From Candidatus Helarchaeota ASGARD archaeon Hel_GB_B (lineage in GTDB: Archaea > Asgardarchaeota > Lokiarchaeia > Helarchaeales > HEL-GB-B), in the NCBI GenBank assembly GCA_005191425.1, contig SUPR01000115.1, forward strand, positions 1 through 9,733: 9,733 nucleotides of DNA, in the 5' to 3' direction. Under the pieces are notes generated by a model. The model did not search any database and was not told the DNA's origin. It saw nothing but the letters and a program-made list of their open reading frames with translations. How positions within the stretch are numbered: position 1 is the stretch's first letter; each line of letters begins with the position of its first letter. A program made the position numbers and the translations under genes. Below, one piece after another: positions 382 through 9,536 of the stretch.

Positions 382-537
382 ATATCTCACTATTATTTTT
401 TAATTAAGAATTTTGATTCTCTTATGCATAATTGTTAATTGCGTTATTCTCATTTAATACCATCAAAAATTATCAAAATTAAACCTTTATTTTCATCTAA
501 ATTTCATAAATTAATGGTAACTTTACATATATTAATT

Positions 538-571
538 TAATCCAATAAAAATAGTAATCCAATAAAAATAG
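538..571. repeat. Perfect tandem duplication of a 17-mer, (TAATCCAATAAAAATAG)x2
   Basis: Read directly: 538-554 and 555-571 are identical. Confidence 0.9.
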
Positions 572-670
572 GAAAGTAGCCATTCTGAAAAAATTCTGCC
601 TTGTAAATATTAATTTATTGGTATCCTAATTTTTAAAATTTTAAATATTAAAACAAAATCTCAAAAAATC

Positions 671-700
671 CCATAATTTATCCGAGAATTCCATAATTAA
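671..700. repeat. Direct repeat CCATAATT(T/A)A with 20-nt period
   Basis: CCATAATTTA at 671-680 and CCATAATTAA at 691-700, separated by TCCGAGAATT. The repeat is real; a function is unproven. Confidence 0.55.
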
Positions 701-1239
701 ATAAAAAAATAATTCAAAGTAATAAAAAATAGAAGTCCACTTGGAAAATTTAATTTTAAAAAACTCTTTAAAACTGTAAATTATAATAGTTATCTGTATT
801 TGGGGCGATAAAAATAAGTTATAAATCTATTTCTATGCAGTTAAAAATATTTTATGTATACAAATATACTTTATTATTAATTATTTTACCAATAACAGGT
901 CTGATATCTTTAAATTTTAGGTTAAATTTATTTCTATTTACTAATTTTATTGATTAGATTTATAATTTTGGTACTTCGATTGAATTTATTTCATTATCAA
1001 TTTATTTTCTGATACTTTTTCTTTTTAACTTTTACTTTTAATTTACAGACTAATGGTATTATTGAGTTAATGCCCTTTCTATCGTCTTCGTTCCCTTAAT
1101 TGTACAATATTTGTTAAATATGCTTTAAATAAAATAATCTTAATCATACAAATTTCTGATAATTAACTTTATTAAATTAGTTAGGTTTAAGAATGATTTT
1201 TTGGAATTAGAGCTTGATAAACGTAGCTATATTAATTAA

Positions 1240-1247
1240 TTTTAATA
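1240..1247 (+). promoter_or_regulatory. Putative archaeal TATA box of the Ubl operon
   Basis: TTTTAATA ending 23 nt before ATG 1271. Such motifs are common in AT-rich DNA, and other candidates exist (e.g. TTTATTAAA near 1168-1176). Confidence 0.3.
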
Positions 1248-1255
1248 CGCCTTAT

Positions 1256-1262
1256 GGAAGGT
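1256..1262 (+). promoter_or_regulatory. Shine-Dalgarno-like site for the Ubl gene
   Basis: GGAAGGT 8 nt upstream of ATG 1271. This supports 1271 over the TTG at 1214 used by the ORF track. Confidence 0.55.
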
Positions 1263-1270
1263 TCTTAAAA

Positions 1271-1582
1271 ATGAAAAAGACTATATTAAAGGTTAGATTT
1301 GCACTTTCCAATGAACCAATATTTATTGATGTAGATAATAAAAGTCAGCCAATTAAAGAAATTTTATTGAATGCTGTGGACAAGTTAGAAGTATTGGGAC
1401 TAACTCATGAAGCAATTCAATTATCAAATGTTTTAGAGGACCATAATATTTACATTCAGGGTAGTCAAATTAACCCGGAAACAATCTTAAACACATTACC
1501 TTTGGAAAACAAAGTAATAAATTCCGAAGAAATTGAATATGCGGAAGTGCAATTATTACGAGAACATAGGGGTGGAAATTAA
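1271..1582 (+). CDS. Ubiquitin-like (beta-grasp) modifier, 103 aa, pro-form ending ...LLREHRGG-N
   Basis: C-terminal RGG (GG at 1571-1576) followed by one residue (Asn) and the stop. Pattern: beta (ILKVRFA), beta (PIFIDVD), helix (PIKEILLNAVDKLE), then IYIQGSQINPETILNTL, which resembles ubiquitin LIFAGKQLEDGRTLSDY. It lies directly upstream of E2-, JAMM- and E1-like genes. Start re-called to ATG 1271. Confidence 0.82.
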   Translation: MKKTILKVRFALSNEPIFIDVDNKSQPIKEILLNAVDKLEVLGLTHEAIQLSNVLEDHNIYIQGSQINPETILNTLPLENKVINSEEIEYAEVQLLREHRGGN

Positions 1583-1609
1583 TAATACAAATTTTGAGTG
1601 AGTCTATAG

Positions 1610-2374
1610 ATGGAAATCTCATTAAAAGAGAAATTAATCAAATATCTTATTATAGACGGAGAATTTTCTTTCATAATAGGAAATGAGATTTATATTTCAA
1701 AACATATTCTACCTATAAAAAAATTTTTTTTGTCAGTTTTAGAACAAAAAGGGGAAGATAGCGGCAAATTTTTACTAGAAATTCTGACCAATCCAAACAT
1801 AGTTATTTTTGGCGGATCGGTCTATTATTTGGAAAAACTAATCAATGTTAAGACCGCTATTCAAAAATTAAAGAGCGAACTCACTAGAAATCTGGATATT
1901 ATTTTAAAAGAAAATAGCGCTTTAATCAATCTATTTAATATTCTAAGTATTAATGATATTATAGAACTCTCTGAAAATGGTATCTCATTCTATTTGTTAG
2001 ATGGGAAATTATACGCTATAAAATACCTCTCAGAATATGTCCAAAAATATAACAATAAAAAATGGAAATTCCCTGGTTGTACTCTTGGCATATATATTGA
2101 TAATCAGTTAAGATTAGGTAATGTCGTAGTATTAAAACCGAAAAACTATATTCATCCATTTGTATATACAACTGGCCCTCCTTACAAAATATGTCTCGGG
2201 ACTTTTTATGATTCATGTGATGCAAAAAAGGTCAAGTCCTTAGCACTTGTGAATTCTTTAATAATGCTATTTATGACTGCGATTCAAATTTTAGTTTCAG
2301 GATATGATAGAAATGTTTCTCCTGCTAATGGTCATTTAACTGACGAAAAATATGATAAATATTTAATAAATTAA
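1610..2374 (+). CDS. Divergent E2/UBC-fold ubiquitin-conjugating-like protein with a ~150-aa N-terminal region of unknown type (254 aa)
   Basis: H182-P-F-V-YTTGPPYK-I-C195-L-G matches the E2 HPN(I/V)...G.ICL motif, with N->F and a 3-residue insertion. Downstream IQILVSGYDRNVSPAN resembles the Rad6/UBE2A IQSLLDEPNPNSPAN segment. Operon context agrees. Confidence 0.75.
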   Translation: MEISLKEKLIKYLIIDGEFSFIIGNEIYISKHILPIKKFFLSVLEQKGEDSGKFLLEILTNPNIVIFGGSVYYLEKLINVKTAIQKLKSELTRNLDIILKENSALINLFNILSINDIIELSENGISFYLLDGKLYAIKYLSEYVQKYNNKKWKFPGCTLGIYIDNQLRLGNVVVLKPKNYIHPFVYTTGPPYKICLGTFYDSCDAKKVKSLALVNSLIMLFMTAIQILVSGYDRNVSPANGHLTDEKYDKYLIN

Positions 2375-2391
2375 TGGACAAATGATATAAA

Positions 2392-3357
2392 ATGGTTAGA
2401 ATAATAAAATCACTGGACGATATATCATCAATTAAAATTAAAAGAGAACCTGATAATTGCCCTGTTGCATTGAAAAAAATAAAAATTACAGACAATGCGT
2501 TGAAAAAATTATTTTTAATGGCTAAAGCTGTTAATGAACATTTAGGGGGATATTACGAAGTATATTGCTTATTATTGGGCGAAGATGATATTATTGAAGA
2601 TATTTATATTCCAGAACAAGAAGCTGGTACTACAAGTGTGAATGTTTCTGAGGATAATTTAATAAAAATTATTAATAATATCGATTCATTAGAAATTACC
2701 AAAAAAATACTGGGCTGGGGGCATTCACATGGTAATTTTTCGGTATTTTCTTCATATACCGATGACCAAAATCATCTAACAATTCTTAACCAAACTTCCA
2801 ATTTCGTGAAAATTAATAATCAAGAAATTAAATTTGCCTATGGCTTAACTGTAAACGTTAAGAAAGAGATTTTTGGAATAGTTATTAGCCAATATACTTG
2901 TGGGGCTATTTTTCAAAGAAAAGGTAATTTCATTTATCTTCGAAACCAAGATAGTTTCGATGAGTTTAGTGAATATAATAATATTTTAGATATTGTTAAA
3001 AAACGAGTGAGAAAATATAATTGGGACCTTATACTTCCAAAAAGAAAAAAATTAATCGACTATTTGAATAATGAAAATGAATTAGACATTTTACATAAGG
3101 GCAACATTTCAATTAATGACCCTGTTTTTACTGATAATAAATCTACAAATTATGAAATCGTTTTTAAAAAGATTGACTTGTATACTTTACAAGATTTGCT
3201 CTCGTCAGATAGAATAACTGAGATGTTATTAAATTATAATCTATTTAAACAAATAGCTATCGAATTTGGTGAAGAAAAATTCAGAGTTTCTTTGTATTCG
3301 ATAATTAATGTGATTAGAAACCAGATAATGCATGAAATTATCGAGTTAAGTCAATAA
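2392..3357 (+). CDS. JAB1/MPN/Mov34 (JAMM, MPN+) metallo-isopeptidase with C-terminal extension (321 aa)
   Basis: Complete JAMM motif: E56 (YEVYCLLLG) and GWG-H111-S-H113-x7-S121-x2-D124. The IEDIYIPEQEAGTTSVNV segment resembles Rpn11 VVDVFAMPQSGTGVSVEA. Confidence 0.93.
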   Translation: MVRIIKSLDDISSIKIKREPDNCPVALKKIKITDNALKKLFLMAKAVNEHLGGYYEVYCLLLGEDDIIEDIYIPEQEAGTTSVNVSEDNLIKIINNIDSLEITKKILGWGHSHGNFSVFSSYTDDQNHLTILNQTSNFVKINNQEIKFAYGLTVNVKKEIFGIVISQYTCGAIFQRKGNFIYLRNQDSFDEFSEYNNILDIVKKRVRKYNWDLILPKRKKLIDYLNNENELDILHKGNISINDPVFTDNKSTNYEIVFKKIDLYTLQDLLSSDRITEMLLNYNLFKQIAIEFGEEKFRVSLYSIINVIRNQIMHEIIELSQ

Positions 3358-3385
3358 ATTATATAAAATTAATTGGGGTATTTAA

Positions 3386-4276
3386 ATGTCACAAAGTTTA
3401 AGATATGATAGACAAAATCAGATTAAAAAATGGGAACAAAAAAGGTTATTAATTTCAAAAGTATCTGTTATAGGTGCTGGCGCTTTAGGCAATTATGTTT
3501 GTGCTGGGTTAATTGGACTTGGCATCGGAAATATCGAAATTTACGATTTTGATGAAATCGAAATTCATAACCTAAACAGGCAATCAATGTTTACAGAAGA
3601 AGATATTGGTTTTAATAAAGCTGAAATTTTAACAAAGAGATTACAAGAAAGAAATTCAGAGATAAATATACAGGGTTATTCCGAAAAAATCACTGAGAAA
3701 AATATAGCGACCTTATTAAATGATACTGACTTGATAATTGATGCAGTAGATAATATAGAAACTAGAGCTGTTTTGTCAAGATTTTCTCTTATTAAAAATA
3801 TCCCCTTGGTTCACGGTGCTACATCTGCAGATGGTGGACAAATTGCGGTTATAACAAGAGAAACTCCTTGTTTAGAATGCTTTATGAATACCAATAGAAA
3901 AAACAGTTCACAATCGTGTACCGACAATCCTAATCCAAGTGTGGTTTATACAACACAAGTAATTTCCGGACTAATGGTCGAAAATACAAGAATTATACTT
4001 TTACCCCTAAATAAGTTAGAAAAACCAACTCCTCCACTTTTGTATTATGATCTTCTTTCTCCAAATAGGTTTTATCATGTGAATATACAACGTAAGAAAG
4101 ATTGCATTTGCAACGAAATCCTCAAAAACGCTAAATTAGAAAAACCTACTCTGGAAAAAATTAAGGTCGATCTTGATAATAGAGTAATAAACACTGTCGA
4201 AAAAATTGATACTAATAAAAATAACATCTCTAATAAAAAACGTACTCGAAAATTTACATTAAGTGATTTTATATAA
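3386..4276 (+). CDS. ThiF/MoeB/HesA-family E1-like Ubl-activating enzyme with C-terminal tail (296 aa)
   Basis: RYDRQ, G30-AGALG nucleotide loop, DFDEIEIHNLNRQ, DAVDN..TR, C162xxC165, putative catalytic C178 (SQSCT, codon 3917-3919) and C240-x-C242. Confidence 0.95.
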   Translation: MSQSLRYDRQNQIKKWEQKRLLISKVSVIGAGALGNYVCAGLIGLGIGNIEIYDFDEIEIHNLNRQSMFTEEDIGFNKAEILTKRLQERNSEINIQGYSEKITEKNIATLLNDTDLIIDAVDNIETRAVLSRFSLIKNIPLVHGATSADGGQIAVITRETPCLECFMNTNRKNSSQSCTDNPNPSVVYTTQVISGLMVENTRIILLPLNKLEKPTPPLLYYDLLSPNRFYHVNIQRKKDCICNEILKNAKLEKPTLEKIKVDLDNRVINTVEKIDTNKNNISNKKRTRKFTLSDFI

Positions 4277-4300
4277 TTTAAAAAATGATGAAAATGAATT

Positions 4301-4732
4301 ATGATGTCTGATGATGAATTATTAGCAAAATTTTTAGCTGAAAATAAAAAAGTTGGAGTGAAAAATAAATCAGAAAAACCTAAATTGATAAAAAATCGTG
4401 AAAAATTAAATAATAAACCTGACTTTTTTCTCCAAAAATTTTTAGACTTACAGGAAGACTCAGTTTTACCTCCAACTTTGTTTTTTACTCTGATAGAATT
4501 ATTTAATTTTGTTAATATACTTCTTGAAAAAATGGACAATAAAAACAGACCAAAGTTAAAAGAATTAATTAGATGGTCCCAATATGCAATTTATGACCAA
4601 GATCTTCAGCAATTAATTGATTATATATCTGAAATTAAGGAAACAAATAATATAAAAAAGGAGACCATTTTATATTCTGTGTTAGATGTTATGACCGCTT
4701 TATCTAAATTCTATTTAAAAGGAGCTGTCTGA
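4301..4732 (+). CDS. Hypothetical protein (143 aa), basic low-complexity N-terminus and predicted helical C-terminal domain
   Basis: Open frame that fills the gap between E1 and the TPR gene with 24- and 19-nt spacers. No recognisable motif. Confidence 0.75.
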   Translation: MMSDDELLAKFLAENKKVGVKNKSEKPKLIKNREKLNNKPDFFLQKFLDLQEDSVLPPTLFFTLIELFNFVNILLEKMDNKNRPKLKELIRWSQYAIYDQDLQQLIDYISEIKETNNIKKETILYSVLDVMTALSKFYLKGAV

Positions 4733-4751
4733 AATAAATAATCTTAAATCA

Positions 4752-7667
4752 GTGGACAAGTCTGTTAAAGAATTTCCCCTGATTTCAATTAAAAATAGTC
4801 TATTTATTTTGAAACCAAGTAATATTGAATTAAAACATATTATTGATGAATTGAGCGAAAATAATGTAAATAACAGCATTAATAAAATATTAAATGAATT
4901 TCAAAATAAAATTCTTTATAACGGAAAATTCTGGGAATTAGAATACGCAGGCAATCCTTATAAATTCATTGATAACATAAAATCATTCTATTTAAGTAAT
5001 CTTGAAGAAAAGTTCAATTCTATTAATCAATTAATTGCTTTTTTTTCGTCTAATTTGAAGAACATCGAGTTAATGTCTCTTCATAAATTAGGGTTTGTTA
5101 TAATTGACCATATTTTATATATAATTAAAAAAATAATTGATATAAATAAATTGGGCAAAAATAAAATTTTATTGGACGAACCTACTTCTTTTGTAGGAGT
5201 AGAAATTCTTGGAAAAAATAAATTGGGTGATTTAGTATTTCTTGACTCTAAAAACCAATTTAAACCCATTTTTTCTATTAGCTCTTCGAATTTACAATGC
5301 TCTGAAAATGATGATAATATTGATTTTATCATTAGAATTAATAATAGATTAGAAAATGCTACAAAAATTCTAAAAATACTTAGTGAAAAAAATTTCGAGT
5401 CCATTGAAAATAAAATTCTCTATATTGAATCTTGTCTACAGAAAATTGAAAAAAATCCCTCCATGATCACAATTAAAAAAATATTAATACTCGAAGAAGC
5501 ATACGATTTAGCTTATGATACTAAATATTATGATATTATCTATAAAGAACTTCTTAATAATTATTCTTTATTTATTAAAGAGCTACTATCATTAGGTGAA
5601 ATATCCAGATTTTCTCAATTTATTAATAAAATAACAACAAAATATGCTAATACAGTTATGGAACCAATTGTTGATATTGTTATTGAATTTGTAGACTCTA
5701 TTCGTGATATAAATACTGGAATAGATTTCTTAATTAAAATCTTCAATCTCGGTTCTAATACCCAAAAAGCCCTGATAAAAGAAACGATTGCTCAAAAATG
5801 TCATACCCTCCATTCATATTTAATTTCGAAACTTGATTTTTCTAGTATTTCTAATTTGCAACTTAAAATTTCAGAATGTCTATCTTTATCTGAGCAACTA
5901 AATGTTTTATTTGACCTTGCTCATTTAATTTTATCCTCGAAGAAAAATATAAGTCTCGATAATTATATCAATTTACTTGAACTTTATTTAGAAATCGCAA
6001 ATAGTTATAATAATAAATTACCTGTTGATCTAGAACTAAAATTCTACGGGATATACTCTGAAATTAAAGATGAATTATATAATATTTATATTTTAAAAAT
6101 TAAATCTTTAATTGATTCAATAATAAATGATTTACAACTAGATTTTGAGCAAATGGACCAAATTATCCTAAAAGTTCATTCAAATTATACTGATTATTCA
6201 GAATTTGACCGGGTATTGGCGAGATATTTTTATAATACTCTTGAATACATTAAAAATTCTCCAAATATGATATATGATACTTTTATTAAAATCGGAAACT
6301 ATGGAATTGCTATCTGTAAAGGGATATACCGAAAAAAAATAGAATCCCTTATCAAGAGAGAAGTAATTTTCCAATCTTTTTATTCTGAAGGAGTTAAAAA
6401 TCTGAAATTGAAAAATTATGATGTTGCATTAGAAAATCTACGTAGTGCAGCGATAATAAAGCCTAAATATTTCAGAATCTGGTTTTTTATTGGACAGGTA
6501 TATTTCAATCTAAAACTTCATGATAAAGCTAAAAATGCCTTGAAATTGGCTTATAAATATGCTGAATTTGGGGATTATTTTGGGTTATATCAACTTAGTT
6601 TAGTCCTTGAAAATTTAAATGAATATAAATATTCTCTCAACATTATTTACAGGTTATTAAAATCAAATCGCAACGATCATGAGGTATATGACCTTTTAAC
6701 AAAAATAAGCTGGAAATTAAAAAATTATGCGTTAATGTTTTTTTCGATTCATTTAACTATTAAAAGTTTAATTCAAAATTATCAACAAAATCTTCTATTA
6801 TCCACCGATTTAGATACTTATTGGCAATATTCTTTTGGAATGATTAATGAATTTATTTCAAGTCAAATTTATGCTAATAATCGGACCAAAAGACCGACAA
6901 AAGGAATCAAAAAAATTATGGTCAATACTCTTCATAAAATTGGTTCGGAATTAATTATTGTTGAGGAATTTGATAAAATATTTGATGTATATAAAATATT
7001 GAAAAAATTTAAGTGTAAAATAAAAGGGAACTTATCGAATTATTTATTTAAGAAGTTTGAAAATCTTGGTGTTTCATTTCACAAAAGAAATCAATTTATA
7101 TCAGCTCTTAAATATTATAATGAACTCATATATCTTAACCCAAGTCATGTTAATTCATACATTAAGATAGGAATTTGCTATATTCATTTAGAAAAATACC
7201 GGGACGCTCTTATTATATTTAAATTTGCTAATAAGTTAGCCCCTAATAATATTCAAATTTTAAATAATCTTGCTATTTTATATTATAATAAAGGTTTATA
7301 TGAAAAATGTTATTCAATATTACAAAAAGTGCTGGAAATTGACCCTACATATTTCATTGTTTATTACAATTTATCATTAGTCTCAATTAAAAAGGGCGAT
7401 TTTAAAAATGCTATTATAGTATATCTTAAATATTTGCAATTACAATACAATGAGAATAAAAATGTAGATTTTATAATAGATTTACTTCAAAAATGTGTCC
7501 TTCAAAAACAATTTGATGAGGAATTATTTAACCAAATTTTAGAATTTTTCACATTTATTGATGATTATGATGGGGTTTATGATAAAAATAAGTTATTTAA
7601 TACATTAATAAATTCTAATATAGATTTGAAATTTAAGGTGCAATTAAAGAAATTAAAAGCATTGTAA
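4752..7667 (+). CDS. 971-aa protein: N-terminal paralogue of the E2-like protein (aa ~1-210), helical middle, two TPR clusters
   Basis: GTG start. TPR consensus repeats at aa ~544-660 (e.g. IWFFIGQVYFNLKLHDKAKNALKLA) and ~769-900 (e.g. ILNNLAILYYNKGLYEKCYSILQKVLEIDP). Manual alignment of aa 52-183 to aa 63-195 of ORF 1610-2374 gives 35 identities with three 1-residue gaps. Confidence 0.88.
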   Translation: MDKSVKEFPLISIKNSLFILKPSNIELKHIIDELSENNVNNSINKILNEFQNKILYNGKFWELEYAGNPYKFIDNIKSFYLSNLEEKFNSINQLIAFFSSNLKNIELMSLHKLGFVIIDHILYIIKKIIDINKLGKNKILLDEPTSFVGVEILGKNKLGDLVFLDSKNQFKPIFSISSSNLQCSENDDNIDFIIRINNRLENATKILKILSEKNFESIENKILYIESCLQKIEKNPSMITIKKILILEEAYDLAYDTKYYDIIYKELLNNYSLFIKELLSLGEISRFSQFINKITTKYANTVMEPIVDIVIEFVDSIRDINTGIDFLIKIFNLGSNTQKALIKETIAQKCHTLHSYLISKLDFSSISNLQLKISECLSLSEQLNVLFDLAHLILSSKKNISLDNYINLLELYLEIANSYNNKLPVDLELKFYGIYSEIKDELYNIYILKIKSLIDSIINDLQLDFEQMDQIILKVHSNYTDYSEFDRVLARYFYNTLEYIKNSPNMIYDTFIKIGNYGIAICKGIYRKKIESLIKREVIFQSFYSEGVKNLKLKNYDVALENLRSAAIIKPKYFRIWFFIGQVYFNLKLHDKAKNALKLAYKYAEFGDYFGLYQLSLVLENLNEYKYSLNIIYRLLKSNRNDHEVYDLLTKISWKLKNYALMFFSIHLTIKSLIQNYQQNLLLSTDLDTYWQYSFGMINEFISSQIYANNRTKRPTKGIKKIMVNTLHKIGSELIIVEEFDKIFDVYKILKKFKCKIKGNLSNYLFKKFENLGVSFHKRNQFISALKYYNELIYLNPSHVNSYIKIGICYIHLEKYRDALIIFKFANKLAPNNIQILNNLAILYYNKGLYEKCYSILQKVLEIDPTYFIVYYNLSLVSIKKGDFKNAIIVYLKYLQLQYNENKNVDFIIDLLQKCVLQKQFDEELFNQILEFFTFIDDYDGVYDKNKLFNTLINSNIDLKFKVQLKKLKAL

Positions 7668-7781: not shown

Positions 7782-9536
7782 TCAACTACCATTCATATCC
7801 AAATAATTTAAAGAAAATTCTCTTATTATTTTTTCAATTTCAGTTTTTGAGTTTATTATTTTATCAATAGTAGTGTAATTCTCGTCTTTATTATGTTTTA
7901 GTAGCAATATTCTATGGGTGCAATTTTTCAAGGCCTCTGCATTATGTGTAGCGATAATTATTGTGGTATTAAAGTCGGAATTAATTTTGACAAGAAAATT
8001 TGTAATTTTTCGGGTGATAATTGGTTCTAAATCTCCAAATGGTTCATCTAACAATAATATTTCCGGCTTAGACAATAATTGAAGTATTAATGCAATTCTG
8101 ACTTTCTCACCCCAAGATAGCTCTTTTGTTCTGCGTTCTAATATATCAATTTCTAGTTCAAACTCATTAAAGAGAGGTGTTATTATTTTTTCATAAGCTT
8201 CAAAAGAAGGTATTGGAAACAAATCTCTAATTAATCGGTGATCGAGCCCCAATTTTTCTAATTTAGCATTCACTTCGTATAATGGTAAATCACCCAATCT
8301 AGACATAATATCAACAATGTTTTCTTTAATTCCAAGTTTTTTTGCTTTTTTAATCGCATTATGTATTGCAGTTTCTCCTTTTAAACCCATTTTACTCAGA
8401 ATCAAATCTTTTACATTAGCATAATATTCTAAATCAAGTTCTTGATGCATCAAATTTATTTTATTTCTGACCTTCATAGCTATTTGGCTTAAATTATAAA
8501 TATTGACTAATTTATCTGAATGATAAAAGATTTTTCCATGTTTAATCATTTCTACTCCCGCAAGGATTCTTAACAACACAGTTTTTCCAATCCCAGAACG
8601 CCCTAAAATCCCTAAAATTTCTCCTTTGAATATTTCCAATTTGGGGATCTTAAGCGAGAAAATCTTTTTTATTTTTGGAGAATAATAGGTGTGATCAAGG
8701 TCTTCAATTGACATAATAACTTTTTTCTTAGAAAATGATGGTAATTTGATTGAAGGTATAAGGACTTGCGAAATTTTATTACTAAATCCTTCAGGTTTCA
8801 CAATATCTTTAATAATGCCATGTTCTAAAATTGCAATTCTATCACAAATAGATTCAAGGATAATTGGGATATGTGAAGTAATTATAACAGTAATTTCGTT
8901 TTCTTTTGCTATTTTTTTAATATATTTAATTGAAATATTCTTTAATTCTGTATCTGACATTGTTAATGGTTCGTCTAAAAGCAAGAGTTGGAGATTATGC
9001 CCTACAAGAGCTAATTGGCGTGCTAATACTAGCCGTTGTTTTTCACCGCCACTTAATATTCCTGAAAACCATTCGGCTTTTTGGTCCAATCCTACAATTT
9101 TTAGAAGATAGAGTGCCTTCTTTTTCATTTTATTGTATTCATCACTTTCCAAATCGGGCAGGTCAACAAGTTCAGACCCATAGGTAATAACATTTAATCT
9201 TCTCATAACATTATGCAATACCGAATCTGCCCATAACCCAAAATTCCGCTGTAAATGGATTGAAGAAATTGTCTTTAATTTATGGACATCTAATTTATTA
9301 GTTTTACCACCTGAAAAAAGGTTGATCCCGTTGATCCTTACTGTTCCTTCATTAAAGTTCTCTACACCACGTAGAATGCGTACTAATGTAGTCTTCCCAG
9401 CCCCCGACTTTCCGAATAGCCCAAAAAATTCCCCTTTTGCTATTTTTAAATTGATATTCTTTAAAGCAGTAATTATTTTTCCATTAGATAATTTATATTT
9501 TTTAGTTAAATTGCTAATCTCGATGAAATATTCCAT
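7782..9536 (-). CDS. Tandem (double) ABC-family ATPase resembling methyl-coenzyme M reductase system component A2 (AtwA), 584 aa
   Basis: Two NBDs. NBD1: GKSGAGKT, LSGGEKQR, LLLLDE, TSH. NBD2: GRSGIGKT, LSWGEKVR, LLLDE, ATH. IHLQRNFGLW, KQRLVLARQLA and MHQELDL resemble AtwA LQRTFALY, KQRVVLARQLA and LHQEYDL (recalled from memory). No TM segments and no permease gene in the window. Confidence 0.8.
   Translation of the reverse strand: MEYFIEISNLTKKYKLSNGKIITALKNINLKIAKGEFFGLFGKSGAGKTTLVRILRGVENFNEGTVRINGINLFSGGKTNKLDVHKLKTISSIHLQRNFGLWADSVLHNVMRRLNVITYGSELVDLPDLESDEYNKMKKKALYLLKIVGLDQKAEWFSGILSGGEKQRLVLARQLALVGHNLQLLLLDEPLTMSDTELKNISIKYIKKIAKENEITVIITSHIPIILESICDRIAILEHGIIKDIVKPEGFSNKISQVLIPSIKLPSFSKKKVIMSIEDLDHTYYSPKIKKIFSLKIPKLEIFKGEILGILGRSGIGKTVLLRILAGVEMIKHGKIFYHSDKLVNIYNLSQIAMKVRNKINLMHQELDLEYYANVKDLILSKMGLKGETAIHNAIKKAKKLGIKENIVDIMSRLGDLPLYEVNAKLEKLGLDHRLIRDLFPIPSFEAYEKIITPLFNEFELEIDILERRTKELSWGEKVRIALILQLLSKPEILLLDEPFGDLEPIITRKITNFLVKINSDFNTTIIIATHNAEALKNCTHRILLLKHNKDENYTTIDKIINSKTEIEKIIREFSLNYLDMNGS

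What the first reader, a model, noticed from the sequence alone, without database searches (positions are those of the whole stretch)
1271..7667. Complete, non-canonical ubiquitin-like conjugation operon (Ubl-E2-JAMM-E1 plus two accessory genes) with no RING E3
Seen: four adjacent genes carry the catalytic motifs of a Ubl (RGG), an E2 (HP..V...ICLG), a JAMM protease (E...HxHx7Sx2D) and an E1 (GAGALG, CxxC, Cys178), followed by an orphan gene and an E2-paralogue/TPR fusion. Established: E1+E2+JAB+Ubl clusters mark protein conjugation rather than ThiS/MoaD sulfur transfer. Known examples are the bacterial BilABCD antiphage systems (Ubl, E2, JAB, E1 - the same component order as here, as I recall it), Bub and PRTRC cassettes, and the Caldiarchaeum/Asgard eukaryote-like Ub-E1-E2-RING-Rpn11 loci. 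Inference: this locus fits none of them cleanly. The Ubl is 103 aa and divergent, there is no small RING, the E1 is a minimal ThiF-type enzyme with a tail, the E2 has a large N-terminal region, and a second E2-like domain is fused to TPRs. It may be an undescribed archaeal Ubl system for antiviral defence or targeted protein modification. Novelty cannot be confirmed without searches.
Basis: partly seen in the sequence, partly recalled or inferred. Interest (0 to 1): 0.93.

Follow-up and report, generated by a model that had tools for sequence, protein, structure and literature searches.

The report
Non-canonical Asgard ubiquitin-like conjugation operon
This Asgard archaeon carries, besides its eukaryote-like ubiquitin genes, a compact six-gene operon for a second, apparently undescribed ubiquitin-like protein-tagging system: tag, activating enzyme, an uncatalogued E2-like carrier, a trimming protease and a catalytically dead E2 copy fused to TPR repeats; relatives of the system occur in closed Lokiarchaeial genomes that are probably the cultured strains.

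Summary
Six tightly spaced co-directional genes (1271-7667) encode six products.
- A 103-aa beta-grasp protein ending RGG plus one residue.
- A 254-aa protein whose C-terminal half models as a UBC/E2 fold, with an invariant His-Pro...Cys signature.
- A JAMM peptidase with all metal ligands.
- A single-domain ThiF-type E1 with an invariant crossover-loop Cys.
- A fast-evolving helical 143-aa protein.
- A 971-aa protein whose N-terminus is a catalytically dead paralogue of the E2-like gene, fused to TPR arrays.

The same six-gene block recurs on at least two independent contigs. The E2-like/JAMM/E1 core is rare: 63 cluster representatives among 1.84 billion. It is present in 11 of 14 genomes of one Lokiarchaeial family, including closed genomes, and there the tag gene is unlinked.

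No Pfam, NCBIfam or PADLOC model covers the tag, the E2-like protein or the accessory genes. It is not a Bil, Bub, SAMP or Caldiarchaeum-type system by their defining features.

Best reading: a thioester E1-to-E2 conjugation cascade acting on cellular proteins. Defence is not supported. All biochemistry is inferred.

The parts
391..1270 (.). 880-nt AT-rich (about 18-26% GC) spacer upstream of the operon; presumed promoter region; holds a perfect tandem 17-nt repeat at 538-571
   Evidence: No ORF of 60 aa or more except the TTG-extended Ubl frame. GC profile. No Rfam family or tRNA. Repeats.
1271..1582 (+). Ubl precursor, 103 aa. Beta-grasp fold with an extra helix. G101-G102 are codons 1571-1576; the one-residue cap Asn103 is 1577-1579.
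   Evidence: AF2 pLDDT 85.6, pTM 0.75. Foldseek best matches are SUMO/NEDD8/ubiquitin and Caldiarchaeum Ub, prob 1.00. VIA Z up to 9.2. 77% identical to the L006 homologue, with the residue after GG differing. ATG at 1271 matches the homologues' starts.
1610..2374 (+). E2-like protein, 254 aa. N-terminal domain (residues 1-100) has two hairpin-plus-helix units. UBC-like core spans residues about 101-254. H182-P183-F184 is at 2153-2161, candidate catalytic C195 at 2192-2194, S-P-A-N at 2318-2329.
   Evidence: AF2 model pLDDT 69.8. VIA-align: top 30-50 matches are all E2/UEV/RWD, Z 4.5-5.7, about 120 residues aligned over 101-253. hhalign against 18 canonical Asgard E2s gives P 0.005 in the register PPxV / HPN / Cys / NPxSPLN. 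Family conservation. No Pfam, NCBIfam, PADLOC or PDB sequence hit.
2392..3357 (+). JAMM/MPN+ metallopeptidase, 321 aa. Catalytic E56 is at 2557-2559 and H111-x-H113...S121..D124 at 2722-2763. The C-terminal extension (residues about 190-321) is shared only with the six-gene form.
   Evidence: Pfam JAB E 0.0021, below cut-off. Motif residues invariant in five homologues. Family profile's best PDB hits are the Caldiarchaeum Rpn11-like protease (8.1e-7), then AMSH and CSN5.
3386..4276 (+). E1, 296 aa, single ThiF/MoeB-type adenylation domain. GAGALG at 3473-3490, C162xxC165 at 3869-3880, crossover-loop C178 at 3917-3919, C240xC242 at 4103-4111. Non-conserved charged tail at 4118-4273.
   Evidence: Pfam ThiF 1.4e-55. 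NCBIfam ThiF/MoeB/UbaA hits all fall below the curated cut-offs. PDB hits: Uba1 active adenylation domain, ThiF, MoeB. Invariant Cys residues, and tail missing in L006.
4301..4732 (+). ORF5, 143 aa, helical, fast-evolving accessory protein of unknown role
   Evidence: Conserved in position in all three six-gene loci, but only 28% identical to L006. No family hits. Atlas gives a low-confidence helical model. No detectable homology to the about 280-aa gene that follows E1 in family f5.
4752..7667 (+). ORF6, 971 aa. Pseudo-E2 domain (residues 6-209, nt 4767-5378), helical middle, and TPR arrays (about residues 544-660, nt 6381-6731; about 769-903, nt 7056-7460). Candidate target-selecting or Ubl-binding subunit.
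   Evidence: hhalign of the ORF6 N-terminus against the E2-like family: Prob 92.5%, P 4.8e-7. His is replaced by K/R and Cys is not conserved. TPR Pfam hits up to 9.4e-19. A 1105-aa TPR protein with a weakly similar N-terminus (P 0.003) sits beside a 32%-identical E2-like gene in L007.

Best explanation
The operon encodes a self-contained ubiquitin-like protein conjugation cascade. It is distinct from the eukaryote-like ubiquitin system that the same genome also carries.

Inferred steps:
1. The JAMM peptidase removes the single residue after Gly102 of the 103-aa beta-grasp tag, and later reverses conjugation.
2. The single-domain ThiF-type E1, presumably a homodimer like MoeB/UbaA, adenylates Gly102 and takes the tag onto crossover-loop Cys178.
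3. The tag passes to Cys195 of the divergent UBC-fold protein.
4. That protein transfers the tag to lysines of cellular target proteins without a RING E3. The choice of target, or tag binding, would be supplied by the 971-aa pseudo-E2/TPR protein, in the way UEV proteins partner active E2s.

Shown here: folds, motifs, their conservation and the gene linkage. Every chemical step, the targets and the role of ORF5/ORF6 are inference. A housekeeping or regulatory role is favoured over antiviral defence.
For: - Ubl: confident beta-grasp model matching Ub/SUMO/NEDD8 and a bacterial Bil Ubl. GG is invariant with a variable short tail.
- E2-like: only E2/UEV/RWD structures top both VIA searches. Profile alignment to canonical Asgard E2s runs in the correct motif register, P 0.005. 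Cys is invariant and His-Pro near-invariant over 50 members.
- JAMM: ligands invariant, nearest to the Caldiarchaeum Rpn11-like pro-ubiquitin protease.
- E1: strong ThiF hit with invariant Cys178.
- Linkage: E2-like, JAMM and E1 are adjacent in most contexts examined. Two are exceptions: L015 has E2-like and E1 but no JAMM, and L007 has neither a JAMM nor an E1 next to its E2-like gene. A small GG-plus-tail protein sits directly upstream even in distant cassettes.
- Genome background: five other ThiF genes and a canonical Ub/E2/E1 cluster exist, so this E1 is not needed for those roles.
- Housekeeping: 11 of 14 genomes of family f5 carry it, at a syntenic locus. Their tag genes sit beside a zinc-ribbon gene and genes that, on my reading of the sequences, look like a cyclophilin-type PPIase and a RIO kinase.
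Against: - The E2 assignment rests on a medium-confidence model (pLDDT 70; the catalytic loop 185-199 is under 50) and Z about 5. By the tool's own notes that is within the range of common arrangements.
- Foldseek gave no significant PDB hit, and no sequence search reaches any known E2.
- The HPN asparagine that supports lysine aminolysis is Phe/Tyr here.
- The tag's fold matches MoaD about as well as ubiquitin (Z 8.0 against 9.2), so fold alone does not exclude a sulfur carrier.
- Distribution is patchy: 20 of 400 genomes of the phylum, 0 of 135 in family f4, and only G000 among the 7 genomes searched in its own order. That would also fit an accessory or mobile system.
- No expression or conjugate data.
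Confidence: 0.6

Rival explanations
1. It is an archaeal counterpart of Bil-type antiviral defence: the tag is conjugated to virion proteins on infection, and the TPR protein acts as sensor.
For: - Same gene order as BilABCD, and like Bil there is no E3.
- Patchy distribution in the window's own order, and different flanks in each six-gene locus.
- ORF5 and ORF6 evolve fast (28% and 35% identity, against 60-77% for the core).
- Helarchaeota viruses are reported to encode E1-like proteins (10.1101/2021.07.29.454249).
Against: - No PADLOC match except the generic E1 domain.
- No recognised defence genes among the neighbours.
- No relatives in IMG/VR contigs.
- The E1 lacks the Bil IAD-AAD-CYS architecture.
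- The core is present in 11 of 14 genomes of one family at a syntenic chromosomal site, with tag genes in housekeeping neighbourhoods.
Confidence: 0.13
2. It is an E2-independent SAMP/UbaA-like or ThiS/MoaD-like system. The E1 activates the tag for sulfur transfer or direct sampylation, the JAMM matures it, and ORF2 is not a tag carrier but has some other role.
For: - The E1 is a single-domain MoeB/ThiF/UbaA-type enzyme with zinc cysteines.
- The tag's fold matches MoaD at Z 8.0.
- Archaeal SAMP systems work with E1 and JAMM alone (established knowledge: Haloferax volcanii SAMP/UbaA/HvJAMM1).
- E2 evidence is only moderate.
Against: - ORF2 is adjacent to E1 (and, except in L015, to JAMM) across deep divergence in most contexts examined, though not in L007, where neither is nearby. 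It keeps an invariant Cys preceded by His-Pro in an E2-like register.
- No rhodanese, MoaE, ThiG or tRNA-thiolation gene is in any of the loci.
- The genome has five other ThiF-family genes for those roles.
- All curated ThiF/MoeB/UbaA NCBIfam cut-offs are missed.
Confidence: 0.12
3. The cascade conjugates the tag to something other than protein lysines, for example a lipid head group or an N-terminus/Ser/Thr, as ATG3/ATG10-type and UBE2W/UBE2J2-type E2s do. This would be consistent with the missing HPN asparagine.
For: - The position after His-Pro is Phe/Tyr in 48 of 50 members.
- The best single pdb_via match is UBE2W (Z 5.7), an N-terminus-specific E2 (established knowledge). The margin over other E2s is under 1 Z unit, so it is tied with them.
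Against: - No evidence on the acceptor at all.
- Bil and UFC1-type E2s also lack HPN yet modify lysines (PMC10557695; UFC1 from established knowledge).
Confidence: 0.08

Closest known systems
Bacterial BilABCD (Type I/II Bil; operon class 6C/CEHH), Chambers et al. PMC10557695; Ye et al. PMC11601596
   Same: Gene order Ubl-E2-JAB-E1. The tag is made with residues after the Gly that a JAB peptidase removes in Bil. There is no E3, so the E2 is thought to pick targets. The intermediates are cysteine-based.
   Different: - The Bil E1 is a multidomain IAD-AAD-CYS enzyme; here it is a 296-aa single adenylation domain.
- No sequence-level link between the E2 or Ubl and Bil proteins was found.
- The host is archaeal.
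- There are extra ORF5 and pseudo-E2/TPR genes.
- There is no defence-island context.
- In family f5 the tag gene is unlinked.
Eukaryote-like archaeal ubiquitin operons (Caldiarchaeum subterraneum and Asgard: Ub, E1, E2, small RING, Rpn11-like), PMC5654768
   Same: Archaeal. A beta-grasp tag with a C-terminal GG, and an E1-E2 cascade. The JAMM here is nearest in sequence to the Caldiarchaeum Rpn11-like protease.
   Different: - The tag and E2 do not match Pfam ubiquitin or UQ_con.
- There is no RING.
- The E2 has HP[F/Y] in place of HPN and a 100-aa N-terminal domain.
- The same genome carries the canonical system separately, on contig C128.
Archaeal SAMP/UbaA/HvJAMM1 sampylation (Haloferax volcanii)
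   Same: Single-domain MoeB-type E1 with zinc cysteines, a small GG-ended beta-grasp tag, and a JAMM peptidase.
   Different: Sampylation needs no E2, whereas here a Cys-bearing UBC-like protein is encoded next to the E1 in most loci examined. The E1 scores 120.9 bits against the UbaA cut-off of 450.
Bacterial Bub (6E/DUF6527) operons, PMC11601596
   Same: Ubl, E2, JAB and E1 components. A Bub E2 (9eav/9eae) is among the structural matches: Z 4.7-4.8, rmsd 3.4-3.5, 17% identity.
   Different: Bub works through Ser/Tyr oxyesters, its E1 and E2 lack catalytic Cys, it uses fused BubAB/BubCD proteins, and it carries the DUF6527 protease BubE. Here the cysteines are invariant, the genes are separate and there is no DUF6527.
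UFM1 system (UBA5 minimal homodimeric E1, UFC1 E2 without HPN)
   Same: Works-like analogy only: a minimal single-domain E1 paired with an atypical E2 that lacks the HPN asparagine.
   Different: The E1 matches UBA5 far more weakly (6e-8) than ThiF/MoeB/Uba1 (1e-20 to 4e-24). UFC1 appears only as a weak Foldseek match. The protease here is JAMM, not a UfSP cysteine protease.

Membership tests
BilABCD (Type I/II) | Gene order Ubl-E2-JAB-E1 | tested here: met
   Window order; Bil order as stated in PMC10557695.
BilABCD (Type I/II) | [quoted passage not shown] | tested here: not met
   296 aa with one ThiF domain covering residues 8-240; Bil definition from PMC11601596. A distant cassette (L016) does have a two-ThiF E1.
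BilABCD (Type I/II) | E2 (BilB/CEHH) and Ubl (BilA) sequence homology | tested here: inconclusive
   No PADLOC or NCBIfam hit, and the E2-family profile does not reach any PDB chain. The Bil Ubl 8tyz_B is a fold match at Z 8.0, tied with many other Ubls. No Bil-specific HMM was available.
BilABCD (Type I/II) | Defence-island or CapH/CapP/BrxR-type regulator context | tested here: not met
   Neighbours are metabolic or unknown genes in L066, L006 and the P0079 contig.
Canonical UBC/E2 (Pfam UQ_con PF00179) | Match to the family HMM | tested here: not met
   No Pfam hit for ORF2 or any of 50 family members. The same genome's three true UQ_con genes score 74-107 bits.
Canonical UBC/E2 (Pfam UQ_con PF00179) | UBC fold (helix, beta-meander, active-site loop, helices) | tested here: met
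   Residues about 101-253 align with about 120 residues of E2/UEV/RWD structures, and these fill the top of both VIA lists at Z 4.5-5.7. Caveats: model pLDDT 70, and Foldseek not significant.
Canonical UBC/E2 (Pfam UQ_con PF00179) | HPN motif followed by the catalytic Cys | tested here: inconclusive
   His-Pro and Cys are conserved with 12-residue spacing and align to HPN...C at P 0.005, but Asn is Phe/Tyr in 48 of 50 members.
Caldiarchaeum/Asgard eukaryote-like Ub operon | Small RING E3 and a ubiquitin matching PF00240 | tested here: not met
   No RING or ubiquitin Pfam hit in any of the six genes. The canonical ubiquitin hits lie on contigs C128 and C90.
Caldiarchaeum/Asgard eukaryote-like Ub operon | Rpn11-like JAMM protease with E...HxHx7SxxD | tested here: met
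   Motif invariant; best PDB hit is 6fjv, the Caldiarchaeum Rpn11-like protein, 8.1e-7.
SAMP/UbaA sampylation | UbaA equivalog (NF047750) and E2-independence | tested here: not met
   120.9 bits against a cut-off of 450. A conserved Cys-bearing UBC-like gene is encoded next to the E1 in most loci examined; L007 is an exception.
Bub (6E/DUF6527) | E1 and E2 without catalytic Cys, Ubl-E2 and JAB-E1 fusions, DUF6527 serine protease | tested here: not met
   C178 and C195 are invariant. The genes are separate. No DUF6527 hit. Definition from PMC11601596.
Ubiquitin-like modifier in the functional sense | ATP-dependent thioester on E1 and E2 and an isopeptide on targets | not testable with these tools
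   Requires biochemistry or proteomics.

The most novel reading that the evidence does not exclude
A vertically inherited second Ubl cascade of Asgard archaea runs in parallel with the eukaryote-like ubiquitin system. It pairs a MoeB/UbaA-grade single-domain E1 with a previously uncatalogued, deeply divergent branch of the UBC superfamily. In its compact form it uses a UEV-like dead E2 fused to TPRs as an E3-free target selector. That would make it a living intermediate between E2-less sampylation and E1-E2(-E3) ubiquitylation, and it would be testable in the cultured Lokiarchaeia.
Probability: 0.3. Interest if true: 0.8.

Novelty: new variant of a known kind. Interest (0 to 1): 0.62.

Why it matters
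Asgard archaea are the reference point for the origin of eukaryotic ubiquitin signalling, and surveys so far count ubiquitin parts by InterPro/Pfam families. This cassette is invisible to those models for its tag, its E2 and its accessory proteins. It is nevertheless nearly universal in one Lokiarchaeial family, including closed genomes that are probably the cultured strains.

If it conjugates proteins, Asgard cells run at least two separate Ubl systems. The E2 superfamily would also have an unrecognised archaeal branch, with its own pseudo-E2 partner. Both points bear on how E2s, UEVs and E3-free targeting arose. The six-gene form in this window is the most complete version seen, because it links tag, enzymes and a putative adaptor in one operon. 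That makes it the natural construct for reconstitution.

Tried and rejected
- **Complex prediction.** Complex prediction with E1(1-250) + Ubl(1-102) + E2-like gave no verdict (score 0.28, mark 0.32). It is not used as evidence either way.
- **Sequence searches for the E2-like protein.** Pfam, NCBIfam, PADLOC, PDB phmmer and a 50-sequence profile against PDB gave nothing.
- **Foldseek for the E2 model.** No PDB match at E 0.001 or better; E2s appear only among weak rows.
- **Other structure libraries for the E2 model.** AFDB clusters returned uncharacterised family members and, weakly, two 'UBC core' entries. The ESM-Atlas shape search gave trypsin-like and CesT/YbjN-type rows at TM 0.32 or lower.
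- **Ubl profile against PDB by sequence.** Nothing meaningful.
- **ORF5.** Against the about 280-aa gene that follows E1 in family f5, P 0.033, not significant. The fifth-position genes of distant cassettes are also not alignable to it. The Atlas search for ORF5 gave only generic helical matches.
- **Small GG-tailed proteins of distant cassettes against the Ubl profile.** Not significant.
- **Viral contigs.** The IMG/VR scan for the E2-like family found no relatives.
- **Expression.** Sequencing-run search: DNA holders only, from hydrothermal-vent and marine-sediment metagenomes; no RNA holder listed.
- **RNA genes.** Rfam and tRNA scans of the window were empty.
- **PIP-box reading of the E1 tail.** Rejected as a conserved feature, because the closest homologue lacks the tail.
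- **Literature.** Four full-text searches found no description of this cassette. This covers only the held library.

Full report
**Anatomy**

The window is a whole 9,733-bp contig (C20) of a 3.5-Mb, 94%-complete Asgard (Promethearchaeota) MAG with about 26% GC.
- Six + strand genes run from 1271 to 7667 with spacers of 17-28 nt.
- They are preceded by an 880-nt AT-rich gap with no Rfam or tRNA hit.
- A divergent C_GCAxxG_C_C gene and a convergent double ABC ATPase flank the block.
- Near-identical DNA occurs in hydrothermal-vent and marine-sediment metagenomes.

**The tag (1271-1582)**

No HMM library recognises it.
- An AF2 model from six homologues is confident (pLDDT 85.6, pTM 0.75) and is a beta-grasp with an extra helix.
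- Foldseek returns SUMO, NEDD8, ubiquitin and Caldiarchaeum ubiquitin at probability 1.00, TM by target 0.6-0.76.
- VIA-align gives Z 9.2-7.3 for 50 ubiquitin-fold proteins. These include a bacterial Bil Ubl (8tyz_B, Z 8.0) but also a MoaD (Z 8.0). The fold therefore shows a Ubl, not which kind.
- All homologues end in R/K/S-G-G followed by nothing, one or two variable residues, or a 27-residue tail. This is the pattern of a processed precursor.
- It is the best conserved gene of the block: 77% identity to L006, against 71% for E1, 60% for E2-like, 59% for JAMM, 35% for ORF6 and 28% for ORF5.

**The E2-like protein (1610-2374)**

Sequence searches find no known family.
- The family is small. 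There are five clusters in the word-indexed 5.8-billion set, and 63 representatives at E 0.001 or better among 1.84 billion with a profile.
- The AF2 model is of medium quality (pLDDT 69.8; the loop 185-199 is below 50).
- Foldseek against PDB is not significant, though UbcH5c, UFC1, Rad6 and UBE2F appear among the weak rows.
- VIA-align against 48,161 representative chains puts E2, UEV and RWD proteins in essentially all top 30 places. Z is 5.3-4.1, with about 120 residues aligned over model residues 101-253, and a Bub E2 scores Z 4.8 with rmsd 3.4.
- The second-look run gives 50 of 50 E2/UEV rows, Z 5.7-4.5. Z about 5 is modest by the tool's own caveat. The argument is the uniformity of the list and the coverage of a whole domain.
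- Independently, I extracted 18 canonical UQ_con E2s from this genome's relatives and ran hhalign against the 50-member family. This gave P 0.005 and an alignment in the expected register:
  - the P-x-V strand with PPxV;
  - Y-x-H-P-F-V with w-H-P-N-I;
  - K-I-C-L-G with x-I-C-x-D;
  - G-Y...S-P-A-N with N-P-x-S-P-L-N.
- Over 50 members, Cys195 and Gly231 are invariant. Tyr180, His182, Pro183, Tyr232 and Pro238 are at least 90% conserved. The residue after His-Pro is Phe or Tyr in 48.
- I read this as a deeply divergent UBC-superfamily enzyme with a 100-residue N-terminal domain made of two hairpin-plus-helix units. My confidence in the E2 assignment is about 0.75-0.8.

**JAMM and E1**

The JAMM (2392-3357) misses the Pfam threshold (E 0.0021). 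It keeps E56, H111, H113, S121 and D124 in all five aligned homologues. A family profile hits the Caldiarchaeum Rpn11-like protease best (8.1e-7), then AMSH and CSN5.

The E1 (3386-4276) is a single ThiF domain (1.4e-55).
- GAGALG, CxxC, CxC and the crossover-loop Cys178 are invariant.
- It misses every curated ThiF/MoeB/UbaA cut-off.
- In PDB it is about equally near the Uba1 active adenylation domain, ThiF and MoeB, and far from UBA5.
- Its 50-residue tail is absent from the closest homologue, so the PIP-box idea noted on this window is not a conserved feature.

**Accessory genes**

The ORF6 N-terminus (residues 6-209) is homologous to the whole E2-like protein (hhalign Prob 92.5%, P 4.8e-7, 200 columns). 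A plain BLASTP gave only E 0.077.
- The His is Lys/Arg, and the Cys183 of the window's copy is not conserved in the three homologues. It is therefore a pseudo-E2.
- This corrects the companion note that it retains the catalytic Cys.
- The rest is helical, followed by two TPR arrays.
- A 1105-aa TPR protein with a weakly similar N-terminus (P 0.003) lies next to a 32%-identical E2-like gene in another metagenomic lineage. This suggests, but does not prove, a recurrent partnership.

ORF5 is helical, fast-evolving and without detectable relatives beyond the six-gene loci.

**Distribution**

The full six-gene order recurs in a Lokiarchaeota MAG contig (L006) and in a contig that also carries MCR genes. 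The contigs are the same organism reassembled.

The phylum survey covered 400 genomes.

| Group | Genomes with the E2-like gene |
|---|---|
| Whole phylum | 20 of 400 |
| Family f5 | 11 of 14 |
| Family f4 | 0 of 135 |
| Window's own order | G000 only, of 7 genomes searched |

- The f5 carriers include three closed genomes of 4.3, 4.4 and 6.0 Mb.
- In f5 the cluster is E2-like, JAMM, E1 and an unrelated 280-300-aa helical protein. It sits at a syntenic site with a divergent zinc-ribbon gene upstream.
- In f5 the tag is encoded elsewhere in one or two copies ending HSGG plus 0-1 residue. One copy lies beside a zinc-ribbon gene and genes that, on my reading of the sequences, look like a cyclophilin-type PPIase and a RIO kinase.
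- Earlier scan note e1-2536139 described the tag-less operon in Promethearchaeum syntrophicum. My searches agree and add the location of the tag genes.
- That G167 and G168 are the cultured strains is my inference from genome size and closure only.
- More distant cassettes are L016, L068 from 'Euryarchaeota archaeon SM23-78', and L069. A cluster-mate of the L069 E2-like protein is annotated to a Nitrospirota MAG.
  - L016 and L068 have a 467-493-aa E2-like protein, a large JAMM protein, a 466-532-aa E1 (two ThiF domains in L016) and protein kinases nearby.
  - L069 (435-aa E2-like protein) ends just after the E2-like gene, so its JAMM and E1 are unseen.
  - In all three a small protein with GG plus a 3-5-residue tail lies immediately upstream.

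**Comparison and mechanism**

The genome has its own canonical Ub/E2/E1 cluster on C128 and six ThiF-family genes in all. This operon is therefore an additional system.
- It shares gene order and E3-lessness with Bil but fails Bil's E1 architecture.
- It fails Bub's Cys-less chemistry and DUF6527.
- It fails the RING and ubiquitin criteria of the Caldiarchaeum type.
- It fails the E2-independence of sampylation (see the membership table).
- The most economical mechanism is a thioester relay: JAMM-matured tag, then E1 Cys178, then E2-like Cys195, then target. ORF6 would act as a UEV-like adaptor.
- Defence is not excluded, but it has no positive support.
- The family-level conservation and synteny point to a cellular function.
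- All chemistry remains to be shown. The one complex prediction gave no verdict.

Noticed in passing
window 7782-9536 (-): Double ABC ATPase whose best NCBIfam hit is methyl-coenzyme M reductase component A2 (223 bits, cut-off 517). A homologous six-gene locus lies 7-10 kb from MCR beta/gamma and methanogenesis-marker genes. The organism is therefore probably an MCR-bearing (Helarchaeales-type) Asgard archaeon. No functional link to the Ubl operon is shown.
   Followed up: partly
window 538-571: Perfect tandem duplication of a 17-nt unit inside the 880-nt AT-rich region upstream of the operon; a possible regulatory site, or slippage.
   Followed up: no
L029-L036 (e.g. G167:C1:927023-927319 and 4123746-4124042): Family f5 genomes carry one or two unlinked paralogues of the tag, ending HSGG with 0-1 extra residue. 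One sits in a conserved neighbourhood: zinc-ribbon protein, tag, then genes that look (by eye, not searched) like a cyclophilin-type PPIase and a RIO-type kinase.
   Followed up: partly
L015 1549-3587 (Hodarchaeota MAG): An E2-like gene is followed directly by a ThiF E1, with no JAMM between them. The E1 has an extra C-terminal domain of about 80 residues after the CxxC, possibly a ubiquitin-fold domain. The E2-like protein carries a Cys-rich C-terminal tail. The E1 reading frame is interrupted by masked bases.
   Followed up: no
L016 and L068: Distant cassettes have Ser/Thr protein kinases adjacent (one in L016, two in L068). L016 has a two-ThiF-domain E1, and L068 has a ClpB-like AAA ATPase downstream. 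This hints at phospho-regulation or unfolding coupled to the system.
   Followed up: no
G166:C136:4815-6478: Two tandem E2-like paralogues (E 1.9e-60 and 7.6e-61) in one family f5 genome.
   Followed up: no
G000:C128:58831-65854: The genome's canonical eukaryote-like cluster: two UQ_con genes, a ubiquitin, and a 434-aa ThiF E1 that also matches the ubiquitin Pfam model at its C-terminal side.
   Followed up: no
window 4075-4539 (-), 5081-5404 (-), 2016-2225 (-): Antisense ORFs of 69-154 aa inside the operon genes. They are low-complexity products typical of AT-rich DNA and are taken as spurious.
   Followed up: no
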